DNA of 64,000 nt from Deltaproteobacteria bacterium UBA2409 (GTDB lineage Bacteria; Bdellovibrionota_C; UBA2361; DDRT01). Positions 38,782-54,801 of the stretch are shown one piece after another; position 1 is the stretch's first letter; each line of letters begins with the position of its first letter. The notes below the pieces were generated by a model, which did not search any database, was not told the DNA's origin, and saw only the letters and a list, made by a program, of their open reading frames with translations. Position numbers and translations under genes: made by a program. The stretch spans positions 400,215 through 464,214 of the forward strand of contig DDRT01000001.1 of the NCBI GenBank assembly GCA_002343185.1, in the 5' to 3' direction.

Positions 38782-38906
38782 CAGTAATACAGTCGGCAGA
38801 TCGCCCTAAAAACTTTACGTAGAAAATATGAGTTTAGAGCAGCTAACCCACTGATTTTATTGATCCCTTGCAGGTAGCTCTTTTCGTAGGTACTCTCATT
38901 TTCGCT

Positions 38907-40298
38907 ATGAATACAAGAATTGAAAAAGACTCGATGGGTGAAATGGAAGTACCAAATGATGCACTTTGGGGAGCTTCAACGGAAAGAGCAGTCAGAAATT
39001 TCCCGATTAGCTCACTAAGATTCCAAGGCGCTTTTATATCTAGCTTAGGAACTATCAAGGCCGCAGCAGCTGAAGCAAATCAAAAACTGTCCTTGCTGGA
39101 TCCTGAAAGAGGTGGGCTTATTATTAAAGCAGCAGAAGAAGTTATCGAAGGAAAACTAAGTAATCACTTCGTGTTAGATATTTTTCAGACTGGCTCTGGA
39201 ACTTCTACAAACATGAACGCAAACGAAGTAATTGCAAACAGGGCACTTGAGATCTCAGGTAAAGGAAGAGGGGAGAGGAATTACATTCACCCTAATGATC
39301 ATGTAAATATGAGCCAGTCTTCAAATGATGTCATTCCTACTGCCATATCGGTTTCAGCATTATGCGAAGTAAAGAAAAATCTTTTGCCATCTTTAAAGGA
39401 GCTACATAAAGAGCTTGATTCGTGCTCAAGAAAATTTTCTGACGTGATTAAATCTGGAAGAACACACTTGCAGGATGCAACTCCTATTACTTTAGGACAA
39501 GAATTTTCAGGATATGCAGCTCAGATTGAACTTGGAATTGAGAGAATCGAGAGAGCTTTTGAGAGGCTTTCTGAGCTTGCTCTTGGCGGAACAGCCGTAG
39601 GGACTGGTTTAAACACACATCCAGATTTTCCAAAACTTGCGATTGAAGCGATCAGTAGAAGAACAGGGATAACTTTTAAAGAGACAAGAAATCACTTTCA
39701 AGCTCAAGCTGCACAGGAAAATAGCGTTGAGCTTAGTGGTAGCTTACGAGCTACAGCACTTTCTCTTCTAAAAATTGCAAATGACATCAGGATGCTTGGC
39801 TCAGGACCAAGATGTAACATCTTCGAACTTCAGCTTCCTGAGATTCAACCTGGTTCAAGCATTATGCCTGCCAAAGTTAATCCAGTTGTTTGTGAATCAG
39901 TTATGATGGGGGCTGCACACGTTGTTGGGTGTGACGCTGCTATAGTAGTTGGGGCTCAACATGGAAACTTCGAACTAAATACAATGCTTCCAGTTATTGG
40001 ATATAATCTCCTTTGTTCGATTGAAGTTTTAGCTGGAATTTCAAGAAACTTTGCACGTAAGTGCATCTCAGGTCTTGAGGCAAATAGGGATAAGTGTCTT
40101 GAGTACGCTGAGAAAAGCTTAGCCACCTGCACATCACTAGCTCCAATAATTGGATATGATGCGGCAGCTAAAGTAGCTAAACAGGCATATCTTGAAGATA
40201 AAACTGTGAGACAGGTCGTTGAAGAGCTTGGGCTTCTTGATAAGGATAAAGCTGCCCAAGCACTGAATCTTATGAATATGACAAAACCTGGGCTTTAA
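38907..40298 (+). CDS. fumC: Class-II fumarate hydratase / aspartate ammonia-lyase family enzyme (FumC-like).
   Basis: N-terminus EKDSMGEMEVP…LWGAST, signature FQTGSGTSTNMNANEVIANRA, and SS-loop GSSIMPAKVNPVVCES. The N-terminal motifs are FumC-like while the SS-loop is closer to AspA, so substrate assignment is ambiguous. The likely start is the internal Met (MNTRIEKD). Confidence 0.75.
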   Translation: MNTRIEKDSMGEMEVPNDALWGASTERAVRNFPISSLRFQGAFISSLGTIKAAAAEANQKLSLLDPERGGLIIKAAEEVIEGKLSNHFVLDIFQTGSGTSTNMNANEVIANRALEISGKGRGERNYIHPNDHVNMSQSSNDVIPTAISVSALCEVKKNLLPSLKELHKELDSCSRKFSDVIKSGRTHLQDATPITLGQEFSGYAAQIELGIERIERAFERLSELALGGTAVGTGLNTHPDFPKLAIEAISRRTGITFKETRNHFQAQAAQENSVELSGSLRATALSLLKIANDIRMLGSGPRCNIFELQLPEIQPGSSIMPAKVNPVVCESVMMGAAHVVGCDAAIVVGAQHGNFELNTMLPVIGYNLLCSIEVLAGISRNFARKCISGLEANRDKCLEYAEKSLATCTSLAPIIGYDAAAKVAKQAYLEDKTVRQVVEELGLLDKDKAAQALNLMNMTKPGL

Positions 40299-40759
40299 TG
40301 AACCATCCCACTTGCGCGGGCAACTTTTGGACCCTCATCAATAAAAGTGATTGATGTATCATCAAATCTGTTTCTTCGTCGTCTAATTTCATCGTGGAGT
40401 GTTCTTGCAAGGCGCATCCTAAAAAGTGCTCCGTGATAGTATGAATAAAGTGCTAAGCCTGACCCAAAAAGTGCAGTTGCAGATAAAAGTATAAGAATAG
40501 AAGCAAAGTATGGAAGTCTTATTAGTGAAGCTACTAATATGCAGGCCAGGCTAGTAGCAATCAAAGGGATATAAGTTGCATGAGAAAATCGCTTTCTATT
40601 TAAAAAAAGTGGGAATCTTGATGGTGAAGTAGAAAGAAGATCTTCTAAATATGACTCGAGGATTTCAACTGGAATAAATGAAACAGCTACTCTAAATCTA
40701 TTCGGATTTCCGTCACATGAAACTAAAGATGTGCCGATTACTTTGTATTGATCCCGCAT
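40295..40759 (-). CDS. Hypothetical membrane protein (154 aa, two TM helices).
   Basis: Central hydrophobic pair (LIATSLACILVASLI / ASILILLSATALFGSGLALY). Confidence 0.4.
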   Translation of the reverse strand: MRDQYKVIGTSLVSCDGNPNRFRVAVSFIPVEILESYLEDLLSTSPSRFPLFLNRKRFSHATYIPLIATSLACILVASLIRLPYFASILILLSATALFGSGLALYSYYHGALFRMRLARTLHDEIRRRRNRFDDTSITFIDEGPKVARASGMVH

Positions 40760-40922
40760 AACTTAGGAGATTGTACTTAATTCTTAAATCTTAGTCGAAG
40801 CGGAAACTTGGAAAATCGTAAGTAGCTGAAAAGATTAAGGGAGCCTTTTTAAGAGCTCCCTTAAACGCTGCGATACCCAGCAGCATGGGGTGTGTGTTGA
40901 GGGAAGTGTAAAACCTAAAAAC

Positions 40923-41267
40923 TTATGCAGCCTCCTTTATTTCGCTTCTCATTAAATACCATGGGGCAAGTCTGCTTTCTCCCCGTTTTGGCATGGCTTT
41001 AATCTGTTTGCTAATCTCTGTCTGATCTAAATCCAGCTGTTCGCATACCCAAGGAAACGAGAACTCTGGGTAAGGAGTCTCTGTTGGAGGATTAAATATC
41101 CAAGCCTCTGCTTCCTCAGAGTCCTTTCTATTGTTGCCAGCAAGATCGAGCATGGCGCGCTCTAGAACAGCTAGAATAAGCCTTCGTTCTGGAGAGCCAG
41201 TAGCATTTGGCTCATCATATGTGTCATCTTCGTTAGAAAACATAATTTCAAACCTTTCTCTCTTCAT
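40923..41267 (-). CDS. Hypothetical acidic protein (114 aa).
   Basis: Clean ORF. A hairpin (AAGGGAGC…GCTCCCTT) downstream at about 40838-40868 is a likely terminator. Confidence 0.35.
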   Translation of the reverse strand: MKRERFEIMFSNEDDTYDEPNATGSPERRLILAVLERAMLDLAGNNRKDSEEAEAWIFNPPTETPYPEFSFPWVCEQLDLDQTEISKQIKAMPKRGESRLAPWYLMRSEIKEAA

Positions 41268-41300
41268 ATCTTTAATGTTTATATAGACGAAGGAAGTAAG

Positions 41301-41825
41301 ATGTTATTCAACAATTTTCGAATATTTTTTTTCTTAAGTCTTTTCATGATGTTACAGAATGGCTTTTGTCAAAAGAAAGAAGAGCCTCCTAAGGAGCCTG
41401 AAGTTAAGCCATCTATAGCGGTTTGTAGAAGCGAAGTTAGGTATACATGGAAGCCAACAGGGGATGCTAAGGATTCCCCAGGCCTAGACGTTAGCTACGC
41501 CATAGTGGAAGCAAGAGGAGACTCGGAGGAAGAGGCTAAAGTAGCCCTTTCAAGGAGAGTAGCTGGGGAGAGAAGTGCGGCTTCAAATAGATGTCGTCAT
41601 ACTCATGAGAATCTAGCAGGATGTATCTCTACAAAGTACGCCTCAATGACGTCTATATTAAATGCTTTAAGTTTTGGTGCTCGTGGGGAACTTGAAAAAG
41701 CAATAGCTCAGGATTGCGGTAAGCAAACAGGAAGATGTCTTACCACTGCAAGCTCAGAGCCTGAGTGTTCAAAAGAAGAGATTATTGCTGAAGCCTCGGA
41801 GGCTGCTGCTGAGGAGAAGAAGTAG
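41301..41825 (+). CDS. Secreted hypothetical protein (174 aa).
   Basis: Signal peptide, then a Lys/Glu/Pro-rich region. Several Cys residues. Confidence 0.4.
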   Translation: MLFNNFRIFFFLSLFMMLQNGFCQKKEEPPKEPEVKPSIAVCRSEVRYTWKPTGDAKDSPGLDVSYAIVEARGDSEEEAKVALSRRVAGERSAASNRCRHTHENLAGCISTKYASMTSILNALSFGARGELEKAIAQDCGKQTGRCLTTASSEPECSKEEIIAEASEAAAEEKK

Positions 41826-41829
41826 CAAG

Positions 41830-41934
41830 CGGGGGTCAGGCCGCCCTATTGTTGCTTCATCCGCTGGCGCGGATGATAGAACCCTGACCAGGCAAGCATT
41901 ACGTCTGGTCAGGCCTTCCGGCCTGACCCCCAAG
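41830..41934. repeat. Family-1 palindromic element, dimer with an extra internal hairpin (CATCCGCTGGCGCGGATG).
   Basis: GGGGGTCAGGCC…CCTGACCAGG … CTGGTCAGGCCTTCCGGCCTGACCCCCAAG. It overlaps the last ~9 codons of the convergent 376-aa ORF. Confidence 0.7.
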
Positions 41935-43039
41935 TAGAACTCGTTGCACCAAGAAAATTTTCAAGAACAACTAGCTCACTAGAATGTTGTATTGCCTTAG
42001 AACCTGTCACTAGGTTCTCACCCTCTTTAATAATTGTTCCATCTTTTCTGATAAAACATGGCATTAGAGGTGGCAGTTTTCTGAGTTCATCCAGTATTGC
42101 AATCATAATGGAATCATCAGGATCTTTTAGTTTTAATGCCTTTCTTCGGAGTTCTAAAACATAATAAAGACCCTCTTGGAAAAGTTCTCGTATTGAGTTG
42201 CTTGAACTAGCTTTTTCAAGAGCAATGTTAATGCAGCCTACTATAAACTCTTCACCGATTTTTATCTGTTCAATCTCATAAAAGGGCAGATTAAAATGTA
42301 CGACCAAAGCATTTAAAATAAGTGCCAATTCTTCTCGGTCATCATCCTTAAAGTTAACAAGGAGACCTGCACTAGCTTTAAGTTCAGATTTTGGTTCTTT
42401 AAATTTATCAATTTTTTTCGGGCTTATAACTTCGGATGCAAACTCAAGATCTGGGATTCCTTCCGCAGCGAGCCTTTTTAGTTTGTCCTGGTAGCTATCC
42501 TCTTCTAATGCACTGGGGGTTGAAACTGTTGGTATACTCAAAACTTGATAAAAAACTTCAGGACTTGTTTCAAATAGAAGAGCTAAAATTCGACCTAAGG
42601 CAAAAAACTTATCAGGGTCTTCATGAGAGATTAAAATCCATGTGTGTCCCTGATCTGGTGTGTAAAAGCCTGGTGCCGGCGGAGCATCCGTAGGTTCTTC
42701 GTTCGTTTCTACAGTAACGTAAGCCGATAGGATTAAAGACAGAACTTTAAGATCAATAACTTTCAGTATTTTTTGGAGGATTGAAAGCCCACCTTCATCA
42801 TCGTCTAAGAGTAGCCATGAAAAGAAATTTTCTTCGCTAACTTTATCTTTATTCCATAAATCTAAGTCCAAAAAAGTTCTGGTCTGCTCCAGAGTTGCGA
42901 GCATTATAAGCTCTACTGAGCTCTCAAGCCCTTGATCTTTTATGCAATAATATAGTGTCTGAGCAGGTAGCGATTTTACAACCACCTCTGGAGCTTCAGC
43001 TGAATAGATAGTGGTTATTAGATCTTTTGATTTTATCAT
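41909..43039 (-). CDS. Hypothetical protein (376 aa), translationally coupled downstream of infC.
   Basis: The start overlaps the infC stop by 1 nt. No recognisable motif. The C-terminal codons lie inside the repeat element. Confidence 0.45.
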   Translation of the reverse strand: MIKSKDLITTIYSAEAPEVVVKSLPAQTLYYCIKDQGLESSVELIMLATLEQTRTFLDLDLWNKDKVSEENFFSWLLLDDDEGGLSILQKILKVIDLKVLSLILSAYVTVETNEEPTDAPPAPGFYTPDQGHTWILISHEDPDKFFALGRILALLFETSPEVFYQVLSIPTVSTPSALEEDSYQDKLKRLAAEGIPDLEFASEVISPKKIDKFKEPKSELKASAGLLVNFKDDDREELALILNALVVHFNLPFYEIEQIKIGEEFIVGCINIALEKASSSNSIRELFQEGLYYVLELRRKALKLKDPDDSIMIAILDELRKLPPLMPCFIRKDGTIIKEGENLVTGSKAIQHSSELVVLENFLGATSSTWGSGRKA

Positions 43040-43617
43040 TACTTCTTGCTTTGCTTAGCTGGAGCAAGAACTATATGAATCTGTTTTCCTTGAGTTGGAG
43101 AACGCTCATCAACCTGAGCAACATCAGCTAGGCGTTCGATTATCTCATTAAACTTCTTAACTCCAAGATCTACATACATAGCCTCACGGCCACGAAAGCG
43201 CATTGAAAACTTAACTTTATCGCCATCTCCCAAGAACTCTCGGGCATGCTTTAACTTAGTTTCAAGATCTCCAACATCAGTTCTGTATCTGATCCTTAAC
43301 TCTTTGACAGTGTTGTCGGTTCTCTTCTTTCTAGCCTCAGCCTCTTTCTTCTGCTCTCGATATTTGAACTTTCCATAGTCCATCAGCTTACAAACAGGGG
43401 GTTTGGCACCTGGTGCTACCTCGACTAAGTCCAAGCCTAAGGAATCAGCCTCCCTTAGTGCCTGAGCTATTCCGACTACTCCTAACTGCTCACCCTGAGC
43501 CCCAATGAGCCTCACCTCTCTAGCAGTTATTCTGTTATTTATTCTGTGTTGCTCATCTTGCTGAGCTGGGGGTCTGTTGCCCCTTGGACGCCCGCCGCCA
43601 CTTTGGTTACTAAACAA
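43039..43617 (-). CDS. infC: Translation initiation factor IF-3.
   Basis: Strong similarity to IF3 throughout (…EVRLIGAQGEQLGVV…DLVEVAPGAKPPVCKLMDYGKF…RFRGREAMY…IHIVLAPAKQ). It carries a basic Gly/Arg/Pro N-terminal extension. The true start codon may be non-ATG, as is typical for infC. Confidence 0.85.
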   Translation of the reverse strand: MFSNQSGGGRPRGNRPPAQQDEQHRINNRITAREVRLIGAQGEQLGVVGIAQALREADSLGLDLVEVAPGAKPPVCKLMDYGKFKYREQKKEAEARKKRTDNTVKELRIRYRTDVGDLETKLKHAREFLGDGDKVKFSMRFRGREAMYVDLGVKKFNEIIERLADVAQVDERSPTQGKQIHIVLAPAKQSKK

Positions 43618-43664
43618 ATATACCTCTCATAGATTCTCTATTGAACATTAACATGAAAAACAAA

Positions 43665-44633
43665 TCAATTGTTGACCATTCTTTCTATCGGCTCACTGGA
43701 AAGTTCCCTTAAGACCTCTAACCCCTTTACCCCACTATGAAACTTAATTCTATGTAGAAGGACACATGGCAAAAGGGTAACCAGATCATCCTCTGTAGCA
43801 TAGTCTCTGCCCTCAATCAGTGCCCAGGATCTTATTGCTCTTTGAAGCATTAGGGCTGCTCTTGTAGAGGCTCCAAATTGTATTAGGGGGTGAGATCTAG
43901 TTCGCTGAACGATATCCACAATTGCTTCCTGTATAGAGGGGTGTACCTTAACTGACCTAGCAAGCTTTTGAAGATCGAGAACCTCTAATCTTGAGGTAAC
44001 AGGATCTATATTCGATGCGTTATTTATTATTGCCTCTTCATTTTCAAGGATCTCCTTTTCGGTCTTTGGATCTACATAAGACATCGGGATCTTTAGAAGA
44101 AACCTATCTAACTGAACAGAAGGCAGAGGATGAGTGCCTGCAACGTCAAGAGGATTTTGGGTTCCTACAACAAAGAATAAGCTATCTAATGGATATGTAA
44201 CTGAATCGATCGTTACCTGTTTCTCAGCCATGCACTCTAAGAATGCTGCCTGGACTTTAGGACCTGTACGATTAATCTCATCCGCTAAAACTATATGTGC
44301 AAAAACTGGCCCATAAACGAATCTAAAATCCCCAGTTCTTGGTTCAAAAATATTTACTCCAAGAACATCACCTGGGAGAAGATCCGGTGTGAACTGGATT
44401 CTTCTAAATGGGGCTATGTAATCTTTTACCCCCTGTCCCTGAGAGATTAGCCTTCCAAGTGTTTTGCAAAGTGTCGTTTTTCCAGAGCCTGGGTAGTCTT
44501 CGAGTAATACATGACCGTCAGCAATTAGCCCACAAACAACGAGGGCGACTGTATCATCTCTGCCTCTTATGACGCTTTTTAGCCCTGATAGTATTTTATT
44601 AACAACAAGTTGACCCTGTTCGAAGCTTTCCAT
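43665..44633 (-). CDS. MoxR-family AAA+ ATPase.
   Basis: Walker A YPGSGKTT, Walker B LLADEINR, and MoxR-specific C-terminal helical region. Length 322 aa. Confidence 0.85.
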   Translation of the reverse strand: MESFEQGQLVVNKILSGLKSVIRGRDDTVALVVCGLIADGHVLLEDYPGSGKTTLCKTLGRLISQGQGVKDYIAPFRRIQFTPDLLPGDVLGVNIFEPRTGDFRFVYGPVFAHIVLADEINRTGPKVQAAFLECMAEKQVTIDSVTYPLDSLFFVVGTQNPLDVAGTHPLPSVQLDRFLLKIPMSYVDPKTEKEILENEEAIINNASNIDPVTSRLEVLDLQKLARSVKVHPSIQEAIVDIVQRTRSHPLIQFGASTRAALMLQRAIRSWALIEGRDYATEDDLVTLLPCVLLHRIKFHSGVKGLEVLRELSSEPIERMVNN

Positions 44634-44712: not shown

Positions 44713-45882
44713 TTGAATGATATGAAAGAATCAATAGTACTTTGTAGCCCTAAAAGAACCCCGATCGGAAGCTTTCTAGGATCGCTTTCTAGCCTTTCAG
44801 CTGTAGACTTAGGAGTCTCCTGTGTGAAGAGTGTTTTAGAAGAGAGTAAACCTTCAAAAGTTGATGAGTTAATTGCAGGCTGTGTCCTTCAAGCAGGTAC
44901 CAAGCAGGCTCCAGCTAGACAAATTGTGAAGGGAGTAGGGCTCCCAGATTCAACTCAAGCGATGACAATAAATAAGGTTTGTAGCTCAGGACTTAGGGCG
45001 GTTCAGTTAGCTGTGCAGAGTATTTTAGCAGGATCCAGTGAGATCATTATCGCTGGTGGAATGGAGAGTATGTCTCAGGCTCCTTATATTTTAAGAGGCA
45101 TGAGATCAGGCGCAAGACTTGGGCACTCAGAAGCTCAAGATGTAATTCTAATTGATGGCCTTTTAGATGCGTTTGATGGATCTCATATGGGGCTATGTGC
45201 AGAAGCATGTGCAGCAAAGTATGAATTCTCAAGAGAAGCACAAGATCGGTATGCGATTAACTCCTACAGGAAAGCTCAAAGTGCAAACTTTGAAGGTGAG
45301 ATTTCTCCTGTAGAGATCAAAGGTAAGAAGGGATCAGAGTTTATAAAAACTGATGAAGAGCCTACCAAAGTAAACTTTGAAAAAATTCCAGAGCTAAGAC
45401 CAGCTTTTGATAAGGCTGGAACAGTGACTGCTGCAAATGCATCATCAATAAATGATGGAGCATCTTTTATGATTGTAACAACTGAGAGTGTTGCTAAAAG
45501 AGAAGGGTTAACTCCTGTTGCAAGGGTTCTATCGATTGGTTGGTATGGACAAGAACCTAAATGGTTTACTACTGCTCCTGTTGGAGCAGTAAATATGGCT
45601 TTATCAAAAGCAGCCCTAAAGCTAAGTGATATAGATCTTTTTGAGATTAATGAAGCATTCTCTGTGGTAGCCCTTGCATGTCAAAAAGAGCTAGGCATTC
45701 CAGATGAAAAGCTAAACATTAATGGAGGAGCTGTAGCACTAGGGCACCCAATAGGAGCTTCTGGGGCACGAATTCTTACTACCCTGATCCATTCATTAAA
45801 GAGAACCGGAAAGAAAAGAGGAGCCGTAGGTATTTGTAATGGTGGGGGTGAGGCTACCAGTATTATCGTCGAAATAGCTTAA
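44713..45882 (+). CDS. Acetyl-CoA C-acetyltransferase (thiolase II).
   Basis: Thiolase signatures: active-site Cys region INKVCSSGLRAV, and C-terminal NGGAVALGHPIGASGARIL and GICNGGG. Confidence 0.85.
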   Translation: MNDMKESIVLCSPKRTPIGSFLGSLSSLSAVDLGVSCVKSVLEESKPSKVDELIAGCVLQAGTKQAPARQIVKGVGLPDSTQAMTINKVCSSGLRAVQLAVQSILAGSSEIIIAGGMESMSQAPYILRGMRSGARLGHSEAQDVILIDGLLDAFDGSHMGLCAEACAAKYEFSREAQDRYAINSYRKAQSANFEGEISPVEIKGKKGSEFIKTDEEPTKVNFEKIPELRPAFDKAGTVTAANASSINDGASFMIVTTESVAKREGLTPVARVLSIGWYGQEPKWFTTAPVGAVNMALSKAALKLSDIDLFEINEAFSVVALACQKELGIPDEKLNINGGAVALGHPIGASGARILTTLIHSLKRTGKKRGAVGICNGGGEATSIIVEIA

Positions 45883-45946
45883 TAATCCCTTATAGTTAGC
45901 ATAGTTTAAGAGCACTAGGAACTTTAACTCATACAATTGTTCTGTT

Positions 45947-46705
45947 TTGCCGATAGTCATATCCATGACAGATGCTCTGCCTACTCTATTTGTGTCTACA
46001 AGCAGACTTACTTGTAACAGCATGATAGAGGCTTTAAAGCCCGAATATCCATGTTCTCCAGTTTTGGTTGTGAATTCATTAGCAGAAGGATTTCAGCAGC
46101 ACTTGGAGCAAGAATTTAGATTATGTTTCGTCTTTGAAGGATTTGAATCAGAGTACTCTGCATTTTTTAGAGATATCAAAGCGATGGGACGGGATAAGAC
46201 CTGTCATTTTATTCTTGTAACAGAAACTGAAAAATTTAATCCGATATCAGAAGAGCTAAAAGAAACAGGATTTGCAGGTTGGATATGTAATCAGGTAACA
46301 AAAGGAGACAAGCAAACTGTTTGGGAACTTTTTGAAAGAGAAAGACAGGTAGAAGTTATAAAAGAGCGATGCGTCGATATGACTGAGACTGTAAGAGCTG
46401 CACTTCGAACGGTTGATACAGCTGCTAAACATTTGAAGCGCGGTAGATTTAAAAGAGTGGATCAGGTTCTTAAAACCTTTATTAAAGGAAGTACAAAACT
46501 TGATGATTCCGTGATGGAATCTTATCTTAAGGCTCTACAGCTTCAAAGTGACGAGGCTTCTCCATTTAAAAATCTTCATATGAAGGTTCCTGAGCCATGG
46601 AAGCAAAAACTTCCTGAGATGGAAGATGATGGTTACAAGGGTGTTAGTAACCGAACCTGGGAGAGACTCAGAAAGAGATGGGGTAAGCCTGGGGAAGAGA
46701 AGTAG
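45947..46705 (+). CDS. Hypothetical protein (252 aa).
   Basis: Clean ORF with no motif. Confidence 0.35.
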   Translation: MPIVISMTDALPTLFVSTSRLTCNSMIEALKPEYPCSPVLVVNSLAEGFQQHLEQEFRLCFVFEGFESEYSAFFRDIKAMGRDKTCHFILVTETEKFNPISEELKETGFAGWICNQVTKGDKQTVWELFERERQVEVIKERCVDMTETVRAALRTVDTAAKHLKRGRFKRVDQVLKTFIKGSTKLDDSVMESYLKALQLQSDEASPFKNLHMKVPEPWKQKLPEMEDDGYKGVSNRTWERLRKRWGKPGEEK

Positions 46706-46720
46706 GATGGCCTAACCTCA

Positions 46721-47302
46721 TCAATTCAACTGAAACTCAACTGGAATCAAAAGTGAGATCTGTTCTTGTTTAAATCCCTCAGGAAAATTTGGAAATGGTG
46801 CAGCTCTTTCTGCCATAAGTATAACTTCTGAATCAAGAACATCGTAACCAGAAGATTTTGAAAGCTCTGATTTTAAAAGACTCCCTGTATCTCCAATCGT
46901 GATTGATAGAATTGCGGTACCAGTAATCCCTCTTTTTTGTGCTGATCTTGGATAACGTTTTTTAGACTCAATACTTGAAAGAACTATCTGTTCGTAACTT
47001 GCAGAACCTAATTTAGATTCTTCCGATCTTACTTGAGGAGCTTCTACGGAAGCTGTTCTGGTACCAAAAGTATTTTCAGAAACTGGTTTAGAGGCTGTTA
47101 TCTTTTTAGAATTTATTTTAGTTGATTTGATTTTAGGTTTTTCCGTTGGAAGATCTTTTATAGGGATAGAAGGGGGTACCTTTTCCTCAAAGACAAGAGC
47201 AACATCTATTAGTTTCGTATGGGAAGTCTTTGCGGTGTCTAAATTGAAAATTATGGCTGCGTGAACGATAGTTGAGATAATAATTGACGCAAACCACTTC
47301 AT
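46721..47302 (-). CDS. TonB C-terminal-domain protein.
   Basis: N-terminal TM anchor, Pro/Lys-rich spacer, and a C-terminal TonB domain (…KRYPRSAQKRGITGTAILSITI…). Divergent from the TonB-dependent receptor gene. Confidence 0.6.
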   Translation of the reverse strand: MKWFASIIISTIVHAAIIFNLDTAKTSHTKLIDVALVFEEKVPPSIPIKDLPTEKPKIKSTKINSKKITASKPVSENTFGTRTASVEAPQVRSEESKLGSASYEQIVLSSIESKKRYPRSAQKRGITGTAILSITIGDTGSLLKSELSKSSGYDVLDSEVILMAERAAPFPNFPEGFKQEQISLLIPVEFQLN

Positions 47303-47470
47303 ATATTGCTTATATCATTTCATTGCTTGGCATATCAATTTAATCACTGGGTATTAATACTGAATAATATCAATAAGTTGCAAATATGATTGATGCGTAG
47401 GTTATATGTTTGACATATCGAGCAAGCATATTATACAAGATGCATTTAGTGAGTAACTAAAGGGAGTATT

Positions 47471-49657
47471 ATGTATAGAGTATTAGTAATTTTAATTATT
47501 TTAGCCTCTTCATTGATTGCAGAGGAGAAGAAAGACGAAAAGAAGTCAACAAATAGAATTTTGGTCTTATCTGATAAGGATCTTCTAAAAGTTGCTGGAG
47601 GTTCTGCAACACTGCTTGATGAGGAAGATCTTAAAGAAACAAAAGGAAGTGGTGATGATGTTCATCAGACACTAAAAAAAGTTCCTGGTGTTAACATCCT
47701 TGAAGAAGAAGGATATGGGCTAAGACCAAACATTAGTTTTAGAGGAACTCCACCTGAAAGAAGCAGAACAGTAACAATTATGGAAGATGGAGTTTTAAAG
47801 TCACCAGCTCCTTATACAGCACCATCAGCATACATTTTTCCAACATTTGGCCGAATGGAAGGACTTGAAATTCTAAAAGGGGCCTCTCAAATTAAGTATG
47901 GCCCTCAAACAATTGGCGGAAGTTTGAATATGCTCTCTGCAAAGATCCCTGAGGATCAGAGAATTTTTGCTCGCATTGAAGGTGGCGAAGATAGCTTCTT
48001 AAATGCTCATGCAAAATTTGGACAAGGATATGAAAACGGAGGATTCCTGCTTCAAGCATACGACACTCAAACTGATGGATTTAAAAAATTAGATAGCGGC
48101 GGTGACACAGGATTTGATCTAACTGACTTAATGGGTAAGTTTCAGATTAATACAGATAAGGCTGCTGATGTTTATCAGGAGCTTGAGTTTAAAGTTAACG
48201 ATATGACTCAAGATTCAGATGAGACATATCTTGGTCTTACAGAGAATGATTTTAGAGATGATCCATATAGACGTTATTCAGCAACTCAAAACGATAAGCT
48301 AGATATAAGTCAAGAATCATATCAATTAAGGCACTATATCCAGCCAAATGAATTAGTTGATCTAACAACTGTACTTTACAGAACAAAGTCTGCTCGTAAC
48401 TGGTACAAGTTAGATAAGGTTGGTGGAATAGGGCTCTCTGATATTATGAAGGATCCTTTAACTTATGCAGATCCATATTCTTGGATAACAGGAATGACTA
48501 GTCCTGATGATTCACTAGTAATTCGTGGAAATAACAGAAGATACGACTCAAAAGGCATACAATCTGTTCTTGGTGTTGAATTTGATACCGGATCAGTCGG
48601 CCATACAGTTGAGTTTGGTGCTAGGTATCACGAAGACGAAGAAGATCGTTTTCAAGCTGAGGACTCCTATAGAATGGAAAATGGCACTATGATCAGAACA
48701 AAACTTGGTGCTCCTGGTTCGCAGGAAAATCGTATTGGTGATGCACAGGCATGGGCATTCTTTCTTCAAGATACTCTTAAGCTAGATAAACTAACCCTGA
48801 CCCCTGGAGTTCGTTATGAACTTATCGACTACAGAAACCGTGATTTTGGAAAGCTTGATCCAACAAGAAGTGGATCAGCACTTACGACTTCAGAATCAGA
48901 AGTTGACGTAGTAGTGCCTGGGCTTGGCGCAACTTATGTTTTGACTGATTCTGTTTTACTTGTTGGTGGTGTTCATAAAGGGTTTGCCCCTCCAGGACCA
49001 CAGGCAACAAGTGATATTAAAGAGGAGGAAAGTGTAAATTATGAGGCAGGCCTTCGTTATGATAATCAGAGCTTATCTGGATCTTTAATCGGGTTTTTGA
49101 ACGATTATGACAATCTCTTAGGTGCTGATACTCTTGCTGCTGGTGGAACAGGTTCTGGAAATCTGTTTAACGCAGGTGAAGCAAGAAGCTACGGTGTTGA
49201 GACAGGCATTGGATACGATATTGGTAAATCTGCTAAACTTTCAGTAGGGCTGCCAGTATATGTTAGCTATACCTACACAAATGCTGAATTTAGAGATTCC
49301 TTTAATAGCTCACTTTTTGGCTCAGTTACTTCAGGAGATAAGCTGCCCTATATAGCTGAGAATCTTGTTTCAGTAGGAGTTGGGGTTGATTATCAGAAGT
49401 TCAAAGTTAGACTTGATGGACATTTCACTGATGAGATGCCTGTTATAGCTGGTCAAAGTGGACTTAGAACTGATGAGAAAACTGATGACAATTGGGTGTT
49501 TGACTTAGGTGCTTCATACGAAGTAGCTGAAGGAACAAGAGTTTTCTCAAAAGTAAGAAATCTCTTCGATGAAGAGTATGTTGCAGCTCGTCGACCTGCT
49601 GGAGCAAGACCAGGGCTTCCAACAACTGTGTTTGCAGGGATTGAGATAGACCTGTAG
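47471..49657 (+). CDS. TonB-dependent outer-membrane receptor.
   Basis: Signal peptide, plug domain (…VPGVNILEEEGYGLRPNISFRG…), and a long β-barrel region rich in alternating aromatic/Gly residues. Length 728 aa. Confidence 0.7.
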   Translation: MYRVLVILIILASSLIAEEKKDEKKSTNRILVLSDKDLLKVAGGSATLLDEEDLKETKGSGDDVHQTLKKVPGVNILEEEGYGLRPNISFRGTPPERSRTVTIMEDGVLKSPAPYTAPSAYIFPTFGRMEGLEILKGASQIKYGPQTIGGSLNMLSAKIPEDQRIFARIEGGEDSFLNAHAKFGQGYENGGFLLQAYDTQTDGFKKLDSGGDTGFDLTDLMGKFQINTDKAADVYQELEFKVNDMTQDSDETYLGLTENDFRDDPYRRYSATQNDKLDISQESYQLRHYIQPNELVDLTTVLYRTKSARNWYKLDKVGGIGLSDIMKDPLTYADPYSWITGMTSPDDSLVIRGNNRRYDSKGIQSVLGVEFDTGSVGHTVEFGARYHEDEEDRFQAEDSYRMENGTMIRTKLGAPGSQENRIGDAQAWAFFLQDTLKLDKLTLTPGVRYELIDYRNRDFGKLDPTRSGSALTTSESEVDVVVPGLGATYVLTDSVLLVGGVHKGFAPPGPQATSDIKEEESVNYEAGLRYDNQSLSGSLIGFLNDYDNLLGADTLAAGGTGSGNLFNAGEARSYGVETGIGYDIGKSAKLSVGLPVYVSYTYTNAEFRDSFNSSLFGSVTSGDKLPYIAENLVSVGVGVDYQKFKVRLDGHFTDEMPVIAGQSGLRTDEKTDDNWVFDLGASYEVAEGTRVFSKVRNLFDEEYVAARRPAGARPGLPTTVFAGIEIDL

Positions 49658-49757: not shown

Positions 49758-51569
49758 CTAATTTATTTGTTCTTTAAAAATACTATCCACTAAGCTTCGC
49801 ATTACTGCCTCTTCATCTTGCCCGGATGCTCTTGAATTTTGAGTAGTTGGTCTAGAAGATACAAAACTTATTTCTAAAGTGTCGTCAGCTTTTTCAAATG
49901 AGATACTAAATAGCGAATCATCTGATACTTTAAATGGAGTTCTTGAAATCAACTGCCTAGTCCATCTCTCATTAGGAATTAATTTTACAGGCAGTCTATG
50001 ACCGTGATTTCTAAAGATAGCAGGAGATCGATTAAAAAGAAGTTGTCTGTACTCTTCCGAATTGTCAGCAAGAATATTTAATGCTTCTGTTCTTAGTAAC
50101 TCATCATATTTTGGCCTAAGCTTTGAGAGTACCTCATAAGTTAAAGCCTCATCTTCATTAATCTTAGCTTCATAGAGGTTATAAAAAGCTTGAGCATGAG
50201 CTCTTTGATCCAGGACTTTTTGTTTCTCTAATCTTGGAAGAATAAATGAACGTGGAATTGAGCTTAATAATCCTCCAAGTGTTGGGTACTCAAGCATTGA
50301 ATCAGTGTTTCTTATTTTCAGATCCTCAAAATCTCTAAGTGTTTCAATTAAAATCTGCTTTGCTTCACGTTCTAACCAATAGGCTCTTATGGATCTTTTT
50401 AAGTTGGCCCAAATCTCACTGGCTCTCTCAAGAATTGTGAGTTTGGTAGTTTTCACAATATTATTTTTGGCTCTTAAACTTTGGGCAAGTGATTGCATTA
50501 CCCCAGCCTGTAGATCTTCGATTGAAGTACCAATTTTCCCAAACCACTGCTTTTTTTCTAATGCCGCCTCAAAATGTTTTATGGCTCCATCAACATCACC
50601 TGAATAAAGTGCAACTCTTCCACGAGCTAGATGCACAAATGCTCTATGCTCTTCGCCATTTCTAAGTGGAAACTGAGCTACGCAGGCCTCAAAGTTATCA
50701 ATTGCTTTTTTTGCTCCCAGAAGATTTAGCTGATCCATATAGAGAAGTGCTAAATTCAATGCTGGTAAAATATGCTCACATCCATCCTGTTTACCTAAAG
50801 CTCTTGTGTAGGCGATCTCAGCATTTTTATCATCAAACATCTCCTCATAAACTTCACCCATATTGTTAAGCGGAGTAGCAGGATTTCCTAAACGTCCAAG
50901 TGATTCTTCAAGATCAATTGCAGCTTCAAAAATTGAAATAGATTCTTTTGGTTGCTGGTTCATTGAAAGTAGAATACCAAGCATATTTAAAGTTCTCCCG
51001 GGCTCAGCGCCTGACATAACTCCAGCTCTAGCAACTCTTATCGCATCTTGAATGTTTCCTAGTTTCATCATTATCCAGCTTCGTGAAGCAGGGTACCAGG
51101 CAGCCATATATCCATGTCTTGCAAACTCATCGAGCACCTCGAGCGCTTCTTGATAGAGATCTAAGTTTAGCTTCGATTGTGATCTAAGATTATAAAGGTG
51201 CATGTGAGTAGATTCTGTGAAGCTATCGTAATAGGGGGGTTCCCCAAACTGCTCATAAAATAAACTAAAAGCCTTTTCTACGTATCTTTCAGCAAGTCTA
51301 AAGTGTCCAACATAAGCCATATAATAGTGACCTAATAGACTATGTGCGCGGATATTCCTTGGATCTTTTTTGATAGCTTGAATAAGTCTGCTTCTCGCAT
51401 CAAGTGGTCTTTCATCCTGAAGAAGTGTAATTGCATCTAATAGAAGCTCATCAGCTGTTTTATCTTCAACAGGGATATTTTCATCAAAGCTTAAGTCAAA
51501 AGGATCAAATGGATCTTGGCAGAATCCATGAATGGTAAAAAGAAGAATCAGAATAACTTTTTTCACCAT
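49758..51569 (-). CDS. Secreted TPR-repeat protein (603 aa), last gene of the DUF58-transglutaminase operon.
   Basis: Signal peptide MVKKVILILLFTIHGFC, and multiple TPR-like helical repeats (AxxYxxLG…). The start overlaps the upstream gene stop by 7 nt. Confidence 0.5.
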   Translation of the reverse strand: MVKKVILILLFTIHGFCQDPFDPFDLSFDENIPVEDKTADELLLDAITLLQDERPLDARSRLIQAIKKDPRNIRAHSLLGHYYMAYVGHFRLAERYVEKAFSLFYEQFGEPPYYDSFTESTHMHLYNLRSQSKLNLDLYQEALEVLDEFARHGYMAAWYPASRSWIMMKLGNIQDAIRVARAGVMSGAEPGRTLNMLGILLSMNQQPKESISIFEAAIDLEESLGRLGNPATPLNNMGEVYEEMFDDKNAEIAYTRALGKQDGCEHILPALNLALLYMDQLNLLGAKKAIDNFEACVAQFPLRNGEEHRAFVHLARGRVALYSGDVDGAIKHFEAALEKKQWFGKIGTSIEDLQAGVMQSLAQSLRAKNNIVKTTKLTILERASEIWANLKRSIRAYWLEREAKQILIETLRDFEDLKIRNTDSMLEYPTLGGLLSSIPRSFILPRLEKQKVLDQRAHAQAFYNLYEAKINEDEALTYEVLSKLRPKYDELLRTEALNILADNSEEYRQLLFNRSPAIFRNHGHRLPVKLIPNERWTRQLISRTPFKVSDDSLFSISFEKADDTLEISFVSSRPTTQNSRASGQDEEAVMRSLVDSIFKEQIN

Positions 51570-53674
51570 CTTCTTTTAAACCACCAGTTGAAAATAGATT
51601 TTAGGTTGAACAGAGATCTAAATGTTTCAAATTTTGAAAGATTGAGACCTGTCTGGACTGGCTTTCCTATCCTACGTAGTTTTAGCGAAGTAGGAAGCCT
51701 GTCCTTAGTAAAGGTCAGTCTAAAGACTGACCAGACAGGATTTTTGTTTTTATACTTTTCTTCATTCAATAATTTTATAAACTCTTCGAGATCGGAACCA
51801 TGAGATTTACGAACTCTTTTAATAAAGTTTAAGCGAGTTTCCCCATAGTTTCGTTTAAATCCTATGTCCATAAGTTTAGCAAAGACTCCAATTTTAAGAA
51901 GGGATGGGAATAGTAAATACCCCTTCAGTAATAAGATCTTAGATAAAACAACAAAGAAGAATAATGTCGCAAACATGATTACTAATGCTGGCTTTAGCCA
52001 GGCAAATGAAAACGAAGTACTTTCGGAGTCTTTTTTAGCTGGAAGTTCAGGAACTAGCTCTTCAGCAGGGTTAACAAGATTCATAAGCTCTTCAAGTAAA
52101 CCTTGATCGACCTCAGTATCAGCATGGCTTTCAACCTGAAGGGGCTGTGTATCAAAGGCTATCCACCCATAGTCTTGAAAATAAACTTCGGCCCATGCGT
52201 GTCTGTCGCTCATTCTAAGTAATATATGTCCATCTTTAGCTTGGCTTAAGTCAGTAAGGTATCCAGTAGCGATTCTAGATGGAATTCCAATTGCACGAAG
52301 CAGATAAACAGTTGCATGGGCAATATGAACGCAGTACCCACGACCATCCCCAAAAAGATAAGGTGCAACTGGATCGTCCGATGCAGGATGGTTTGGAGTA
52401 AGAGTATAAATTGTAAACTGTGCAAGGTAATCCACGATTCTTTTAATAGAATCAAACGGAGTAGGGGAGTCAGCAGTAATTTTTTTTGCTAGCTCGTGAT
52501 ACCTGGGATCTGTGTGTGCTGCTAAGTAGTTTGCACGTTTATTGTTGTCCCAAAGTGGATCTCCGACTGGTGTGTTTCTTAGAGTTTCAAGCTTTAAGCC
52601 TAACGAAAATGAGAGTGCTCTATAGGCGCCACCTTTAAATCTTCCAGGATTAGGATTTTTGAGCGGGGTTAAAAGTTTTGGATAATCAATCGCAAATGGA
52701 TTTTTATGATCTGCTAAAAGATAGATCTCTTGGGTTAACTCAGATCTACTTATCACTTCCTTTCTAACTTGAGAAAATGAAACGCTTGGCGAATCTCGGC
52801 TTATATCATCGTCAATGCCACTTAAAACAAGCTCTTTACCATTATACTTTGAAAGTGCTGACTCTCTTAGATAAAGCATAGGCGATGTAGGGTTCATCGT
52901 ATAATCACTTTCAAGCCTTACAAGTCCTGCTGGTTGATTTGTGCTGCCTAAAGCTGATTCAAATGTTAGTGGGCTTAACCCTTCTTCTGAGCCTTGGCCA
53001 ACACCGTTACTAAAAAAGGCTTCTCCTTTTTCCTGATAGTATCTTGAGATTCCAAAGAATGAGAGATAGCCGATAAGTAGAAAAATAAATGTTGATAAGA
53101 AGATTCCAAATATTGAAAGTCGCTTGGAAATAGCAGCTCTTTGGTCATTAAATTGTCTAACAGAAAGCGCTCCATATATGACAGCTAGTAATGCCACGAT
53201 AACTCCAAATGCTGAAAATGTTGTTAGTGGAGAAACTCCTAACTGCCAGGAGAGATCATTTATAATTTTCGGCATATCAAGTTGTAGATTTCTGTGAGTA
53301 GCTAAAGAGCCAACTACAACCGTCAGTATCAGTCCAAGCTCTACTAAAAATGCAGCTCTATATTTTTTAACTGCCCAAGTTAGAATGAAAGTTAAAAAGA
53401 AGATAAACATTACTGCTTGAAGATGTAAGAATATGGAGTATGACTTTAAACTTGAATTTCCAAAGAGAGCTAAGATTAGGCCAACCAAGTTGATTGATAG
53501 GGCTCCTCCGATTGTTGTTATTAACAAAACACCAAGTAATTTTAGGTTAGAGGCTCTGCTGCCAACTATAACTCCACCTAAGATTCCAATCGATAGAATG
53601 GCAGGGTGAGTCCCGAATGGAAGCACAAAGTCCACTGCAACTATTGCCATTGTTAGAAGGAGAAAGCGCATCAC
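51563..53674 (-). CDS. Transglutaminase-like membrane protein (DUF3488 / TGase core architecture).
   Basis: Multi-TM N-terminus, and a TGase catalytic triad context (GRGYCVHIAHATVYLLRAIGIP … DRHAWAEVYF … WIAFD). The last ~60 codons run through the family-2 repeat at 51648-51739. Confidence 0.7.
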   Translation of the reverse strand: MMRFLLLTMAIVAVDFVLPFGTHPAILSIGILGGVIVGSRASNLKLLGVLLITTIGGALSINLVGLILALFGNSSLKSYSIFLHLQAVMFIFFLTFILTWAVKKYRAAFLVELGLILTVVVGSLATHRNLQLDMPKIINDLSWQLGVSPLTTFSAFGVIVALLAVIYGALSVRQFNDQRAAISKRLSIFGIFLSTFIFLLIGYLSFFGISRYYQEKGEAFFSNGVGQGSEEGLSPLTFESALGSTNQPAGLVRLESDYTMNPTSPMLYLRESALSKYNGKELVLSGIDDDISRDSPSVSFSQVRKEVISRSELTQEIYLLADHKNPFAIDYPKLLTPLKNPNPGRFKGGAYRALSFSLGLKLETLRNTPVGDPLWDNNKRANYLAAHTDPRYHELAKKITADSPTPFDSIKRIVDYLAQFTIYTLTPNHPASDDPVAPYLFGDGRGYCVHIAHATVYLLRAIGIPSRIATGYLTDLSQAKDGHILLRMSDRHAWAEVYFQDYGWIAFDTQPLQVESHADTEVDQGLLEELMNLVNPAEELVPELPAKKDSESTSFSFAWLKPALVIMFATLFFFVVLSKILLLKGYLLFPSLLKIGVFAKLMDIGFKRNYGETRLNFIKRVRKSHGSDLEEFIKLLNEEKYKNKNPVWSVFRLTFTKDRLPTSLKLRRIGKPVQTGLNLSKFETFRSLFNLKSIFNWWFKRRW
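51648..51739. repeat. Family-2 palindromic element with perfect terminal inverted repeats CCTGTCTGG … CCAGACAGG. It is embedded in the 3' end of the transglutaminase-like ORF.
   Basis: It shares the GGACTGG…AGCGAAGTAGGA…GGTCAGTCT…AGACTGACC architecture with the 6951 and 35773 elements. Confidence 0.65.
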
Positions 53675-54801
53675 TCTACTATTGTAGTTTCAAAACCTGC
53701 CTGTCTACAAACTGTAGCTAGCTCTACAGTTGGCTCTTCAATAATTTGGGTTTCCGAGTCAAATAGAAATCTGGCAAACCCTGATTCGCCAAAGCTCTTA
53801 AAGCTCTTTGATGGCAGGAATATATGAAGATTAGATATTCCCACCAGCTTTTCAACTTCATTACTTATAAACAAAGCCACAATTGCAGCATCTCCTATAA
53901 AATCTCTTAACTCTGTTACTAAGCTAGCCTCATCAGATTTGAAACTTGAACCAATTAAGCCAAGCTCAAAGCTTTCTGCTGTTTCAAAGGTTTCCTTTGA
54001 TCCGAGGCAGCCTGCACGAATTTTAGTTCCCGTAGCTTCAACTTCATAGGCATACTTTAAGGCAAGGCCTGCTAGATAATCATCATTTTTTCTAGCTGCA
54101 CAAAAAATAAGCACCTCGCCCTCTGGCGCATGAGAAAACTCAGGTTGTCTAGTTATTAACTCTCCACTCTTAGCAAATGTTTTCCAAAGAATTCGTTTCA
54201 TTGAGTCACCAGGTTGATATGGCCTTAAATCAAATGGCTCACCAAGTCTTTCTGTTGAAAGTGGGTAGGCGTCTCCTGGGATGATAGAAGACGAAAGTAT
54301 TGGGAGTGGACGAGTTTCAACTGAAGGAACTCTAGAGATTACTGAAGTTTTTATAGGAACAGATACTGTAGCACTAAAAAGCCTAAGTTTGTCTTGAATT
54401 TCAAAATAAACTCCATCAAGGAGCCACTCCCCTCTATGAGGGGTAAAAATAGTGAATTGGAGTATCTCTGATTCAGGGGAAATTCTTGTTTTATTTTCTA
54501 ACTTGTATGGGATATTTATATTCAGTCTTAAAAAAACATCAAATAGAAAGAAACTGGGAATCTCAACTTTAAAAGAAATTTTAGGAGGATTGATCGACGT
54601 TCCCTCAACAAGATCGTTAGCTAGCTCAATTTTAGGATAATATTTAATCTTAGTTATAAGTAGGTAGGAGCCAATTATAATAAAGCTCAGTAAAAGTGTT
54701 AAAAGAATCCCTGTAGTAATTAGATCCGAGTAGAACCATGATGGTACGATCAGGGTAACCAATCCAAGTAAAACTAAAAATCCAATACTACTAAGGCGCA
54801 T
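53671..54801 (-). CDS. DUF58-family protein (MoxR-associated vWA-like).
   Basis: DUF58 motif DLRPYQPGDSMKRILWK, N-terminal 2-TM anchor, and 4-nt overlap with the downstream transglutaminase gene. Confidence 0.65.
   Translation of the reverse strand: MRLSSIGFLVLLGLVTLIVPSWFYSDLITTGILLTLLLSFIIIGSYLLITKIKYYPKIELANDLVEGTSINPPKISFKVEIPSFFLFDVFLRLNINIPYKLENKTRISPESEILQFTIFTPHRGEWLLDGVYFEIQDKLRLFSATVSVPIKTSVISRVPSVETRPLPILSSSIIPGDAYPLSTERLGEPFDLRPYQPGDSMKRILWKTFAKSGELITRQPEFSHAPEGEVLIFCAARKNDDYLAGLALKYAYEVEATGTKIRAGCLGSKETFETAESFELGLIGSSFKSDEASLVTELRDFIGDAAIVALFISNEVEKLVGISNLHIFLPSKSFKSFGESGFARFLFDSETQIIEEPTVELATVCRQAGFETTIVE

What the first reader, a model, noticed from the sequence alone, without database searches (positions are those of the whole stretch)
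41909..44633. infC (IF3) sandwiched between a MoxR ATPase and a 376-aa orphan, with translational coupling
On the minus strand the order is MoxR (43665-44633), a 47-bp gap, infC (43039-43617), and a 376-aa unknown protein whose start overlaps the infC stop by 1 nt. infC is normally followed by rpmI-rplT. Here the ribosomal partners are absent and an orphan is coupled instead. The MoxR gene's usual partners (DUF58 and transglutaminase-like genes) are 7-10 kb away at 51563-54801, without an ATPase of their own. Either this is an unusual rearrangement of two conserved modules, or the 376-aa protein is a lineage-specific translation-associated factor.
Basis: seen in the sequence. Interest (0 to 1): 0.5.

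Follow-up and report, generated by a model that had tools for sequence, protein, structure and literature searches.

The report
Clade-wide infC–DUF6178 operon, rewired IF3 locus
In a large group of uncultured Bdellovibrionota, the gene for translation initiation factor IF3 lacks its usual ribosomal-protein partners and its usual odd start codon. Instead it is tightly coupled to a conserved protein of unknown function (DUF6178), which is therefore a candidate new partner or regulator of IF3.

Summary
In detail: MoxR, a 47-nt gap, infC, then a 376-aa gene whose ATG overlaps the infC stop (TAATG). No rpmI or rplT is present in the window. The 376-aa protein is not an orphan. It is a short form of Pfam DUF6178, a family of about 2,300 clusters.

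The conserved unit is the infC→DUF6178 pair, not MoxR–infC. The pair is present in 71 of 74 informative loci from about 70 species-level MAGs. Stop and start overlap in 22 of them, and the median gap is 11 nt. The pair stays intact through at least three flank arrangements.

MoxR is the last gene of a DUF58–TGase–TPR–MoxR block that is contiguous in relatives. In this sub-lineage a roughly 5-kb insertion splits it.

In-clade infC uses a conserved SD plus UUG start (64 of 71) and carries an N-terminal Arg/Gly-rich tail. Out-of-clade infC uses AUC or AUA (74 of 78) and is followed by rpmI–rplT (41 of 53, none with DUF6178).

DUF6178 is acidic, cytoplasmic and mostly helical. It resembles only the MgtE N domain, and only weakly.

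Best reading (inferred): an IF3-linked protein partner or regulator. Main rival: an unrelated gene riding on the infC transcript.

The parts
43039..43617 (-). infC (IF3), 192 aa, with a clade-specific N-terminal Arg/Gly/Pro-rich extension
   Evidence: IF3_N 8.3e-33 and IF3_C 2.3e-27; TIGR00168 equivalog 202.6 bits against a cutoff of 60; 61-92% identical to IF3 in 70 related loci
43615..43628 (-). infC translation start: SD-like GAGAGG (43628-43623), 5-nt spacer, TTG start codon (43617-43615)
   Evidence: Sequence read. There is no in-frame ATT/ATC/ATA between the upstream TGA and the TTG. GGAGG + T-rich spacer + TTG is conserved in 64-68 of 71 clade loci. ATC or ATA is used in 74 of 78 out-of-clade loci
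43037..43041 (-). TAATG stop/start overlap between infC and the DUF6178 gene (1 nt shared)
   Evidence: Overlaps in 22 of 71 clade loci (19 ATGA, 3 TAATG); median gap 11 nt
41909..43039 (-). Short-form DUF6178 protein, 376 aa, acidic (pI 4.7), no signal peptide or TM segment
   Evidence: PF19676 E=3.7e-42; AF2 pLDDT 86.7 and pTM 0.79; hhalign to the long form 99.8%; dN 0.18 with dS saturated against L167
41827..41846 (.). GC-rich hairpin between the convergent DUF6178 and p174 genes; possible bidirectional terminator (weak)
   Evidence: The number of terminator-like sites is not above the shuffle expectation, so this is only suggestive
43665..44633 (-). MoxR-type AAA+ ATPase. An upstream neighbour, not part of the conserved unit
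   Evidence: AAA_3 2.7e-51 and AAA_lid_2. Within 8 kb of infC in only 8 of the 68 genome loci; adjacent only in the window, L167/L168 and L069
44713..49657 (.). ~5-kb four-gene insert (thiolase +, 252-aa +, TonB-C -, TonB-dependent receptor +) that separates MoxR from its TPR/TGase/DUF58 partners
   Evidence: ORFs. The same insert is present in the closest relative L167/L168 and absent in L081 and L069, where the block is contiguous
49758..54801 (-). DUF58-like (53671-54801), transglutaminase-like membrane protein (51563-53674) and TPR protein (49758-51569): the rest of the MoxR module
   Evidence: Pfam. Order DUF58>TGase>TPR>MoxR in L081 and L069
38868..41825 (.). Conserved lineage-specific neighbour block: fumC (38868-40298 +), p154 (40295-40759 -), p114 (40923-41267 -), secreted p174 (41301-41825 +)
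   Evidence: p174 and p114 lie next to the pair in 58-59 of the loci, on either side and in either orientation. No Pfam, NCBIfam or PADLOC hits

Best explanation
SHOWN. The locus is one instance of a clade-wide bicistronic unit, infC->DUF6178(short form), in a deep and diverse lineage of uncultured Bdellovibrionota. In this lineage three things set the infC locus apart from infC elsewhere. (1) rpmI-rplT do not follow infC, and a DUF6178 gene occupies that position. It usually lies within 0-30 nt or overlaps the infC stop (ATGA or TAATG), so the two genes are almost certainly co-transcribed and often translationally coupled. (2) infC starts at a conserved UUG behind a strong Shine-Dalgarno sequence, instead of the AUU/AUC/AUA that is the target of IF3 autoregulation in other bacteria. 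(3) IF3 carries an extra 15-20-residue Arg/Gly/Pro-rich N-terminal tail. MoxR is merely the last gene of a neighbouring DUF58-TGase-TPR-MoxR block, which an insertion splits in this sub-lineage.

INFERRED. DUF6178(short) is a cytoplasmic, acidic, mainly alpha-helical protein-binding factor with an MgtE-N/FliG-like N-terminal superhelix. It is made in a fixed ratio to IF3. It most likely acts on IF3 itself, possibly on its basic tail, or on the 30S initiation step. It may thereby supply control of IF3 activity that the lost start-codon autoregulation no longer gives. Its biochemical activity is unknown.
Confidence: 0.42

Rival explanations
1. Hitch-hiker. DUF6178(short) has a function unrelated to translation. 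It sits behind infC because that gives strong constitutive expression, and the pair persists through operon inertia and the cost of breaking an overlapping stop/start.
For: DUF6178 long forms and three divergent short forms have other neighbours: acyl-CoA carboxylase/asd, FliM, PrmA, DUF2254. infC-gshB adjacency in other lineages shows that infC tolerates unrelated downstream genes. DUF6178 has no translation-related fold or domain. About a quarter of out-of-clade infC loci also lack rpmI-rplT.
Against: The pair is retained across very deep divergence (DUF6178 down to ~30% identity, GC 28-63%) while everything else around it is shuffled, including an inversion whose breakpoints flank the pair. 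Its presence coincides perfectly with two other IF3-specific changes, the UUG start and the N-terminal tail.
Confidence: 0.35
2. Specialised paralogue pair. The infC here is a second, specialised IF3 copy that works with DUF6178, while a canonical AUH-infC-rpmI-rplT operon exists elsewhere in these genomes.
For: The atypical start codon, extra N-terminal tail and missing rpmI-rplT would all be unsurprising for a diverged paralogue. I could not inspect a complete genome.
Against: The protein scores as a full IF3 equivalog, 202.6 bits against a cutoff of 60, and is highly conserved (median 68% identity). The 120 best IF3 relatives in a 5.8-billion-protein database are all of this type. No canonical infC turned up within 1.16 Mb of lineage sequence, although that sequence was sampled around this locus only.
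Confidence: 0.1
3. DUF6178 works with the conserved small neighbours (secreted p174, p114, p154) rather than with IF3, for example in an envelope-related function.
For: p174 and p114 accompany the pair in 58-59 of ~75 loci.
Against: Their side and orientation relative to DUF6178 vary: upstream of infC in type A, convergent downstream in type B, a third order in L070/L071. They are absent from about 15 loci that keep the pair. DUF6178 has no signal peptide or TM segment.
Confidence: 0.08
4. MoxR-infC-DUF6178 is one functional module, with the MoxR chaperone acting on IF3 or DUF6178.
For: There is a 47-nt gap and no promoter-like site on the minus strand between MoxR and infC in the window. The same adjacency occurs in L167/L168 and L069.
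Against: No MoxR lies within 8 kb in ~60 of 68 loci. Where present it is separated from infC by 0.1-9 kb of variable genes. In relatives MoxR is the terminal gene of a DUF58-TGase-TPR-MoxR block, and MoxR with DUF58 and TGase is a known triad (PMC8430577).
Confidence: 0.03

Closest known systems
Canonical infC-rpmI-rplT operon (E. coli; B. subtilis, PMC1865079)
   Same: infC is the promoter-proximal gene and is followed immediately, often with coupling, by co-expressed partner genes. IF3 itself is a standard two-domain IF3.
   Different: The downstream partner is DUF6178, not L35 and L20. There is no L20 leader and no other Rfam element. The start codon is UUG with a strong SD instead of AUU/AUC/AUA, so the classical IF3 start-codon autoregulation and the L20 feedback are both absent from this locus.
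Pfam DUF6178 (PF19676), long form of Myxococcota/'Deltaproteobacteria' (~550-650 aa)
   Same: Homologous over the whole short form (hhalign 99.8%, E=6e-30). Shared motifs are LDLDxW, TPD and LEEE..R..RL.
   Different: The short form lacks the C-terminal ~170 residues. The long form is never next to infC in the loci examined; its neighbours are a Big_1/Invasin_D3 protein, acyl-CoA carboxylase and asd.
MgtE N-terminal domain / FliG-type helical superhelix
MoxR-DUF58-transglutaminase modules (e.g. the bifidobacterial PFNA cluster, PMC8430577)
   Same: The window holds MoxR, a DUF58-like protein and a transglutaminase-like membrane protein. In relatives they form one block.
   Different: The order is DUF58-TGase-TPR-MoxR, with the ATPase last. 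In this sub-lineage a 5-kb TonB/thiolase insert separates MoxR from the rest. This concerns the neighbour only, not the infC unit.
infC followed by gshB in other (high-GC) lineages
   Same: This is another case where rpmI-rplT are replaced behind infC by a single conserved gene on the same strand.
   Different: There infC keeps its ATC start, and the partner is a known metabolic enzyme with no translation role. It is a warning against over-reading context.

Membership tests
IF3 / infC (TIGR00168) | Both IF3_N and IF3_C domains; equivalog score above cutoff | tested here: met
   PF05198 8.3e-33 and PF00707 2.3e-27; TIGR00168 202.6 bits against a cutoff of 60
IF3 / infC (TIGR00168) | Non-canonical AUU/AUC/AUA start codon, the target of IF3 autoregulation | tested here: not met
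   TTG in the window and in 64 of 71 clade loci. ATC or ATA in 74 of 78 out-of-clade loci. Literature statement in PMC5499595
Canonical infC-rpmI-rplT operon | rpmI (L35) and rplT (L20) immediately downstream of infC | tested here: not met
   No L20 or L35 in the window or in 1.16 Mb of related loci. The same queries find them in 41 of 53 control loci
Canonical infC-rpmI-rplT operon | L20-responsive leader RNA | tested here: not met
   No Rfam family reaches its gathering score in the window. Only 47 nt separate MoxR and infC
IF3 / infC (TIGR00168) | Single housekeeping copy in the genome | not testable with these tools
   No whole genome of the lineage could be read; only +-8-10 kb around each locus was available
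Pfam DUF6178 (PF19676) | Score above the gathering threshold | tested here: met
   144.9 bits against 25.5; all 16 aligned homologues match
Pfam DUF6178 (PF19676) | Full-length architecture (561-position profile) | tested here: not met
   The window protein covers profile positions 22-235. The short subfamily aligns to positions 21-442 of 609 in the long form. It is a C-terminally truncated subfamily
MgtE_N / FliG-like domain | Fold match of the N-terminal helical domain | tested here: inconclusive
MgtE_N / FliG-like domain | Sequence-profile match to PF03448 or the FliG families | tested here: not met
   No Pfam family other than DUF6178 at E<=10 in more than one member. No PDB sequence hit at E<=10
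MoxR AAA+ module | AAA_3 ATPase core plus AAA lid | tested here: met
   PF07726 2.7e-51 and PF17863 1.2e-17
MoxR AAA+ module | Adjacent DUF58/vWA-type partner gene | tested here: not met
   The partners are 5-10 kb away in the window. The block is contiguous in L081 and L069
Known translation or ribosome-associated factors | Sequence or fold similarity of the 376-aa protein to any described factor | tested here: not met

The most novel reading that the evidence does not exclude
DUF6178(short) is a dedicated IF3-binding regulator: an acidic adaptor that grips the clade-specific Arg/Gly-rich N-terminal tail of IF3 or the IF3-30S complex. It would have replaced start-codon autoregulation and L20-linked control of infC in this Bdellovibrionota lineage. 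That would make it a previously unknown protein-level layer of control over bacterial translation initiation.
Probability: 0.2. Interest if true: 0.8.

Novelty: new variant of a known kind. Interest (0 to 1): 0.55.

Why it matters
IF3 sets the fidelity of start-codon selection and keeps ribosomal subunits apart. Its gene is a textbook case of autoregulation through a non-canonical start codon, and of linkage to rpmI-rplT.

In this whole lineage both features are gone and a conserved protein of unknown function is translationally coupled to IF3 instead. If that protein acts on IF3 or the 30S subunit, it would be a new kind of initiation regulator and would give a first function to a Pfam DUF of more than 2,000 clusters.

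If it does not, the locus still documents a clear exception to the claim that infC uses AUU or AUC in all bacteria. It also shows how far the infC operon can be remodelled.

Tried and rejected
- A single-protein scan of genome contigs found nothing. The alignment-based scan worked.
- The afdb50 fold library was unavailable.
- Pfam at E<=10 across 16 members gave no second family. NCBIfam and PADLOC found nothing for DUF6178, p114, p174 or p154.
- I looked for natural IF3-DUF6178 fusions among representatives with N-terminal extensions. There are none.
- The apparent 178-nt read-through overlap in L028 and L052 was a script artefact. Both are ordinary ATGA overlaps.
- No paper in the library mentions DUF6178.
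- The promoter and terminator scan was uninformative, with counts at or below the shuffle expectation.
- dN/dS could not be computed because dS is saturated.
- I considered modelling an IF3-linker-DUF6178 fusion with AF2.
- I could not locate rpmI-rplT in the lineage or count infC copies, because no whole genome was accessible.
- I rejected a defence-system reading (no PADLOC hit), horizontal acquisition (GC of the pair equals its surroundings) and an assembly artefact (the same order appears in many independent assemblies).
Full report
**1. The observation**

- 43665-44633 is a MoxR-type AAA+ ATPase (AAA_3 2.7e-51, AAA_lid_2 1.2e-17).
- 43039-43617 is a standard two-domain IF3 (IF3_N 8.3e-33, IF3_C 2.3e-27; TIGR00168 202.6 bits against a cutoff of 60).
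- 41909-43039 encodes 376 aa.

The MoxR-infC gap is 47 nt. The infC stop and the next ATG form TAATG and share one base. The transglutaminase-like gene (51563-53674) and the weakly DUF58-like gene (53671-54801) are also as described.

No L20 or L35 gene is found in the window, even at E<=10.

One correction is needed. The 376-aa protein is not an orphan. It matches Pfam DUF6178 (PF19676, E=3.7e-42), although only positions 22-235 of the 561-position profile.

**2. What is conserved**

Homologues of the 376-aa protein come from uncultured Bdellovibrionota and 'Oligoflexia' MAGs. A profile search of 1.84 billion representatives finds 2,332 clusters at E<=1e-3 and 251 at E<=1e-30. Nearly all of the best 150 are 400-450 aa.

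An alignment-driven scan of one genome per species returned 68 loci, all MAGs labelled Bdellovibrionota, Bdellovibrionales or 'delta/Proteobacteria'. One of them is a complete 2.28-Mb genome.
- IF3 lies directly upstream on the same strand in 64 of the 68 loci.
- One locus has too little upstream sequence to tell.
- Three loci, the most divergent at 28-36% identity, lack infC upstream.

Adding other loci gives 71 of 74 informative loci with the pair.

I also tested from the IF3 side. The 120 best IF3 relatives are all 65-86% identical. All four long contigs chosen through IF3 carry DUF6178 immediately downstream. So does L087, the one in-clade IF3 found in the metagenome scan.

The junctions are tight:

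| Junction type | Loci |
|---|---|
| ATGA overlap | 19 |
| TAATG overlap (including the window) | 3 |
| Gap of 0-30 nt | 29 |
| Gap of 31-100 nt | 12 |
| Gap over 100 nt | 8 |

The median gap is 11 nt.

The clade is deep. DUF6178 identity to the window ranges from 28% to 76%, IF3 identity from 61% to 92%, and locus GC from 28% to 63%.

**3. The flanks are not conserved as a unit**

Clustering all neighbouring ORFs shows only four other recurrent families: fumC, and three small lineage-specific proteins (p154, p114 and the secreted p174). They occur in at least three arrangements.
- Type A: fumC> p154> <p114 p174> infC> DUF6178>.
- Type B (the window's type): infC> DUF6178> <p174 p114> <p154 <fumC.
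- A third order in L070 and L071.

Types A and B differ by an inversion whose breakpoints flank the infC-DUF6178 pair. The pair therefore moved as one piece.

MoxR lies within 8 kb upstream in only a minority of loci, and variable genes covering 0.1-9 kb separate it from infC. In L081 and L069 the order is DUF58> TGase> TPR> MoxR, contiguous, with infC next.

The window has the same block, but a ~5-kb insert lies between TPR and MoxR. The insert holds thiolase, a 252-aa protein, a TonB C-terminal domain protein and a TonB-dependent receptor. The closest relative shares the insert (L167/L168).

It also shows that the MoxR-infC adjacency is incidental. The MoxR/DUF58/TGase triad is a known association (PMC8430577).

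**4. The infC locus itself is rewired**

A metagenome scan with the window's IF3 mostly returned out-of-clade IF3s at 42-57% identity. These served as controls.

| Feature | In-clade loci | Out-of-clade loci |
|---|---|---|
| Downstream of infC | DUF6178 in 71 of 74; no rpmI or rplT | rpmI+rplT in 41 of 53; neither in 12; DUF6178 in 0 |
| Best-SD in-frame start codon | TTG in 64 of 71 | ATC 42, ATA 32, CTG 2, none called 1; the one TTG is L087, which is in-clade |
| Start position upstream of the conserved HRIN motif | median 26 codons | about 8 codons |

The seven in-clade exceptions in the start-codon count are ties. They are caused by GGAGG-like codons inside the Gly/Arg-rich tail.

Inspection shows a conserved layout of GGAGG, a T-rich spacer, then TTG. 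In the window this reads GAGAGG-TATAT-TTG, and no in-frame AUH codon is available. The earlier start gives IF3 an extra 15-20-residue Arg/Gly/Pro/Phe-rich tail.

He et al. [quoted passage not shown] They also state that IF3 accepts only AUG, GUG and UUG as canonical. On that basis (inference), classical start-codon autoregulation should not operate in this clade. L20-linked control (PMC1865079) cannot operate at this locus either.

Uncoupling from rpmI-rplT is not rare in itself. Of the 12 control loci that lack them, six have glutathione synthetase behind infC. Those keep the ATC start.

**5. The protein**

- All 16 aligned members are acidic, with pI 4.6-5.2. Reading the sequence shows no signal peptide or hydrophobic segment.
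- The alignment has 33 invariant columns rich in Asp and Glu, including the motifs LDLDxW, TPDxGxTW and LEEE.
- Against the closest relative, dN is 0.18 while dS is saturated. This is consistent with purifying selection.
- AF2 gives a confident model (pLDDT 86.7, pTM 0.79): mostly helices plus a small beta element.
- Foldseek against the PDB finds nothing.
- No sequence-level link to MgtE_N or FliG exists.

I therefore call the N-terminal domain an MgtE-N/FliG-like helical superhelix, with low confidence. In those families this domain mediates protein contacts.

The short form aligns end to end with the first ~70% of the long Myxococcota form (hhalign 99.8%). The long form sits in unrelated contexts.

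**6. Interpretation**

What is shown:
- a clade-wide, tightly coupled infC-DUF6178 operon;
- co-occurrence with a UUG start, an N-terminal tail on IF3 and the absence of rpmI-rplT;
- incidental MoxR adjacency.

What is inferred: DUF6178(short) is functionally tied to IF3 or to the initiation step. The most likely form is an acidic protein-binding partner or regulator made in a fixed ratio to IF3.

I give this about 0.4. The main rival, at about 0.35, is an unrelated gene riding on the infC transcript. It is supported by the infC-gshB precedent and by DUF6178 homologues that live elsewhere. A specialised second IF3 copy cannot be excluded without whole genomes (about 0.1).

**7. Novelty**

No paper in the searchable library mentions DUF6178. 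I found no description of an infC operon with this partner or of a clade-wide UUG start for infC. It is a new variant of a known kind, the infC operon and its regulation, with a partner protein whose function is open.

Noticed in passing
window 43615-43630 (-); L001-L083, L167: infC in this clade starts at a conserved TTG behind a strong GGAGG, whereas out-of-clade infC loci use ATC or ATA. IF3 also gains a 15-20-residue Arg/Gly/Pro-rich N-terminal tail. This contradicts the published generalisation that infC uses AUU or AUC in all bacteria.
   Followed up: yes
window 44713-49657: A four-gene insert (thiolase, 252-aa protein with no family, TonB C-terminal domain protein, TonB-dependent receptor) splits the DUF58-TGase-TPR-MoxR block. 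The closest relative L167/L168 shares it. There the TPR/TGase/DUF58 genes are not upstream of the receptor at all; FixG, FixH and DCC1 genes are.
   Followed up: partly
window 40295-41825: Three small lineage-specific proteins (p154, p114, secreted p174) with no hit in Pfam, NCBIfam or PADLOC travel with the infC-DUF6178 pair in most species, on either side of it. p154 is inverted relative to fumC in the window and L167 compared with all other loci.
   Followed up: partly
L104, L106, L112, L114, L115, L124: In some high-GC out-of-clade lineages infC (ATC start) is followed on the same strand by glutathione synthetase instead of rpmI-rplT. This is a second recurrent alternative infC neighbour.
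   Followed up: partly
L076 6876-9254: In one divergent Bdellovibrionales MAG the DUF6178 homologue (30% identity) lies ~100 nt downstream of fliM rather than infC. This is curious given the weak FliG/MgtE-N-like fold signal. In L077 it is divergent from prmA (L11 methyltransferase).
   Followed up: no
L007/L008, L084/L085, L086: Long-form DUF6178 genes of Myxococcota-type MAGs recur next to a divergently transcribed acyl-CoA carboxylase pair. In two lineages they overlap by 4 nt with an upstream Big_1/Invasin_D3 protein and are followed by asd and an amino-acid kinase.
   Followed up: no
window 55021-56769 (-): A 582-aa secreted protein with a HEMFH zinc-protease-like motif and a ~90-residue Pro/Thr-rich low-complexity linker. 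An artefactual Val/Gly-rich ORF lies on the opposite strand (55337-55633).
   Followed up: no
L088 1948-6345: The nearest out-of-clade IF3 (57% identity, 'Deltaproteobacteria' MAG) has the fully canonical order: a 671-aa ORF where thrS would sit (not checked), then infC (ATC), rpmI, rplT and pheS. The switch to the UUG/DUF6178 arrangement is therefore sharp in IF3 sequence space.
   Followed up: partly
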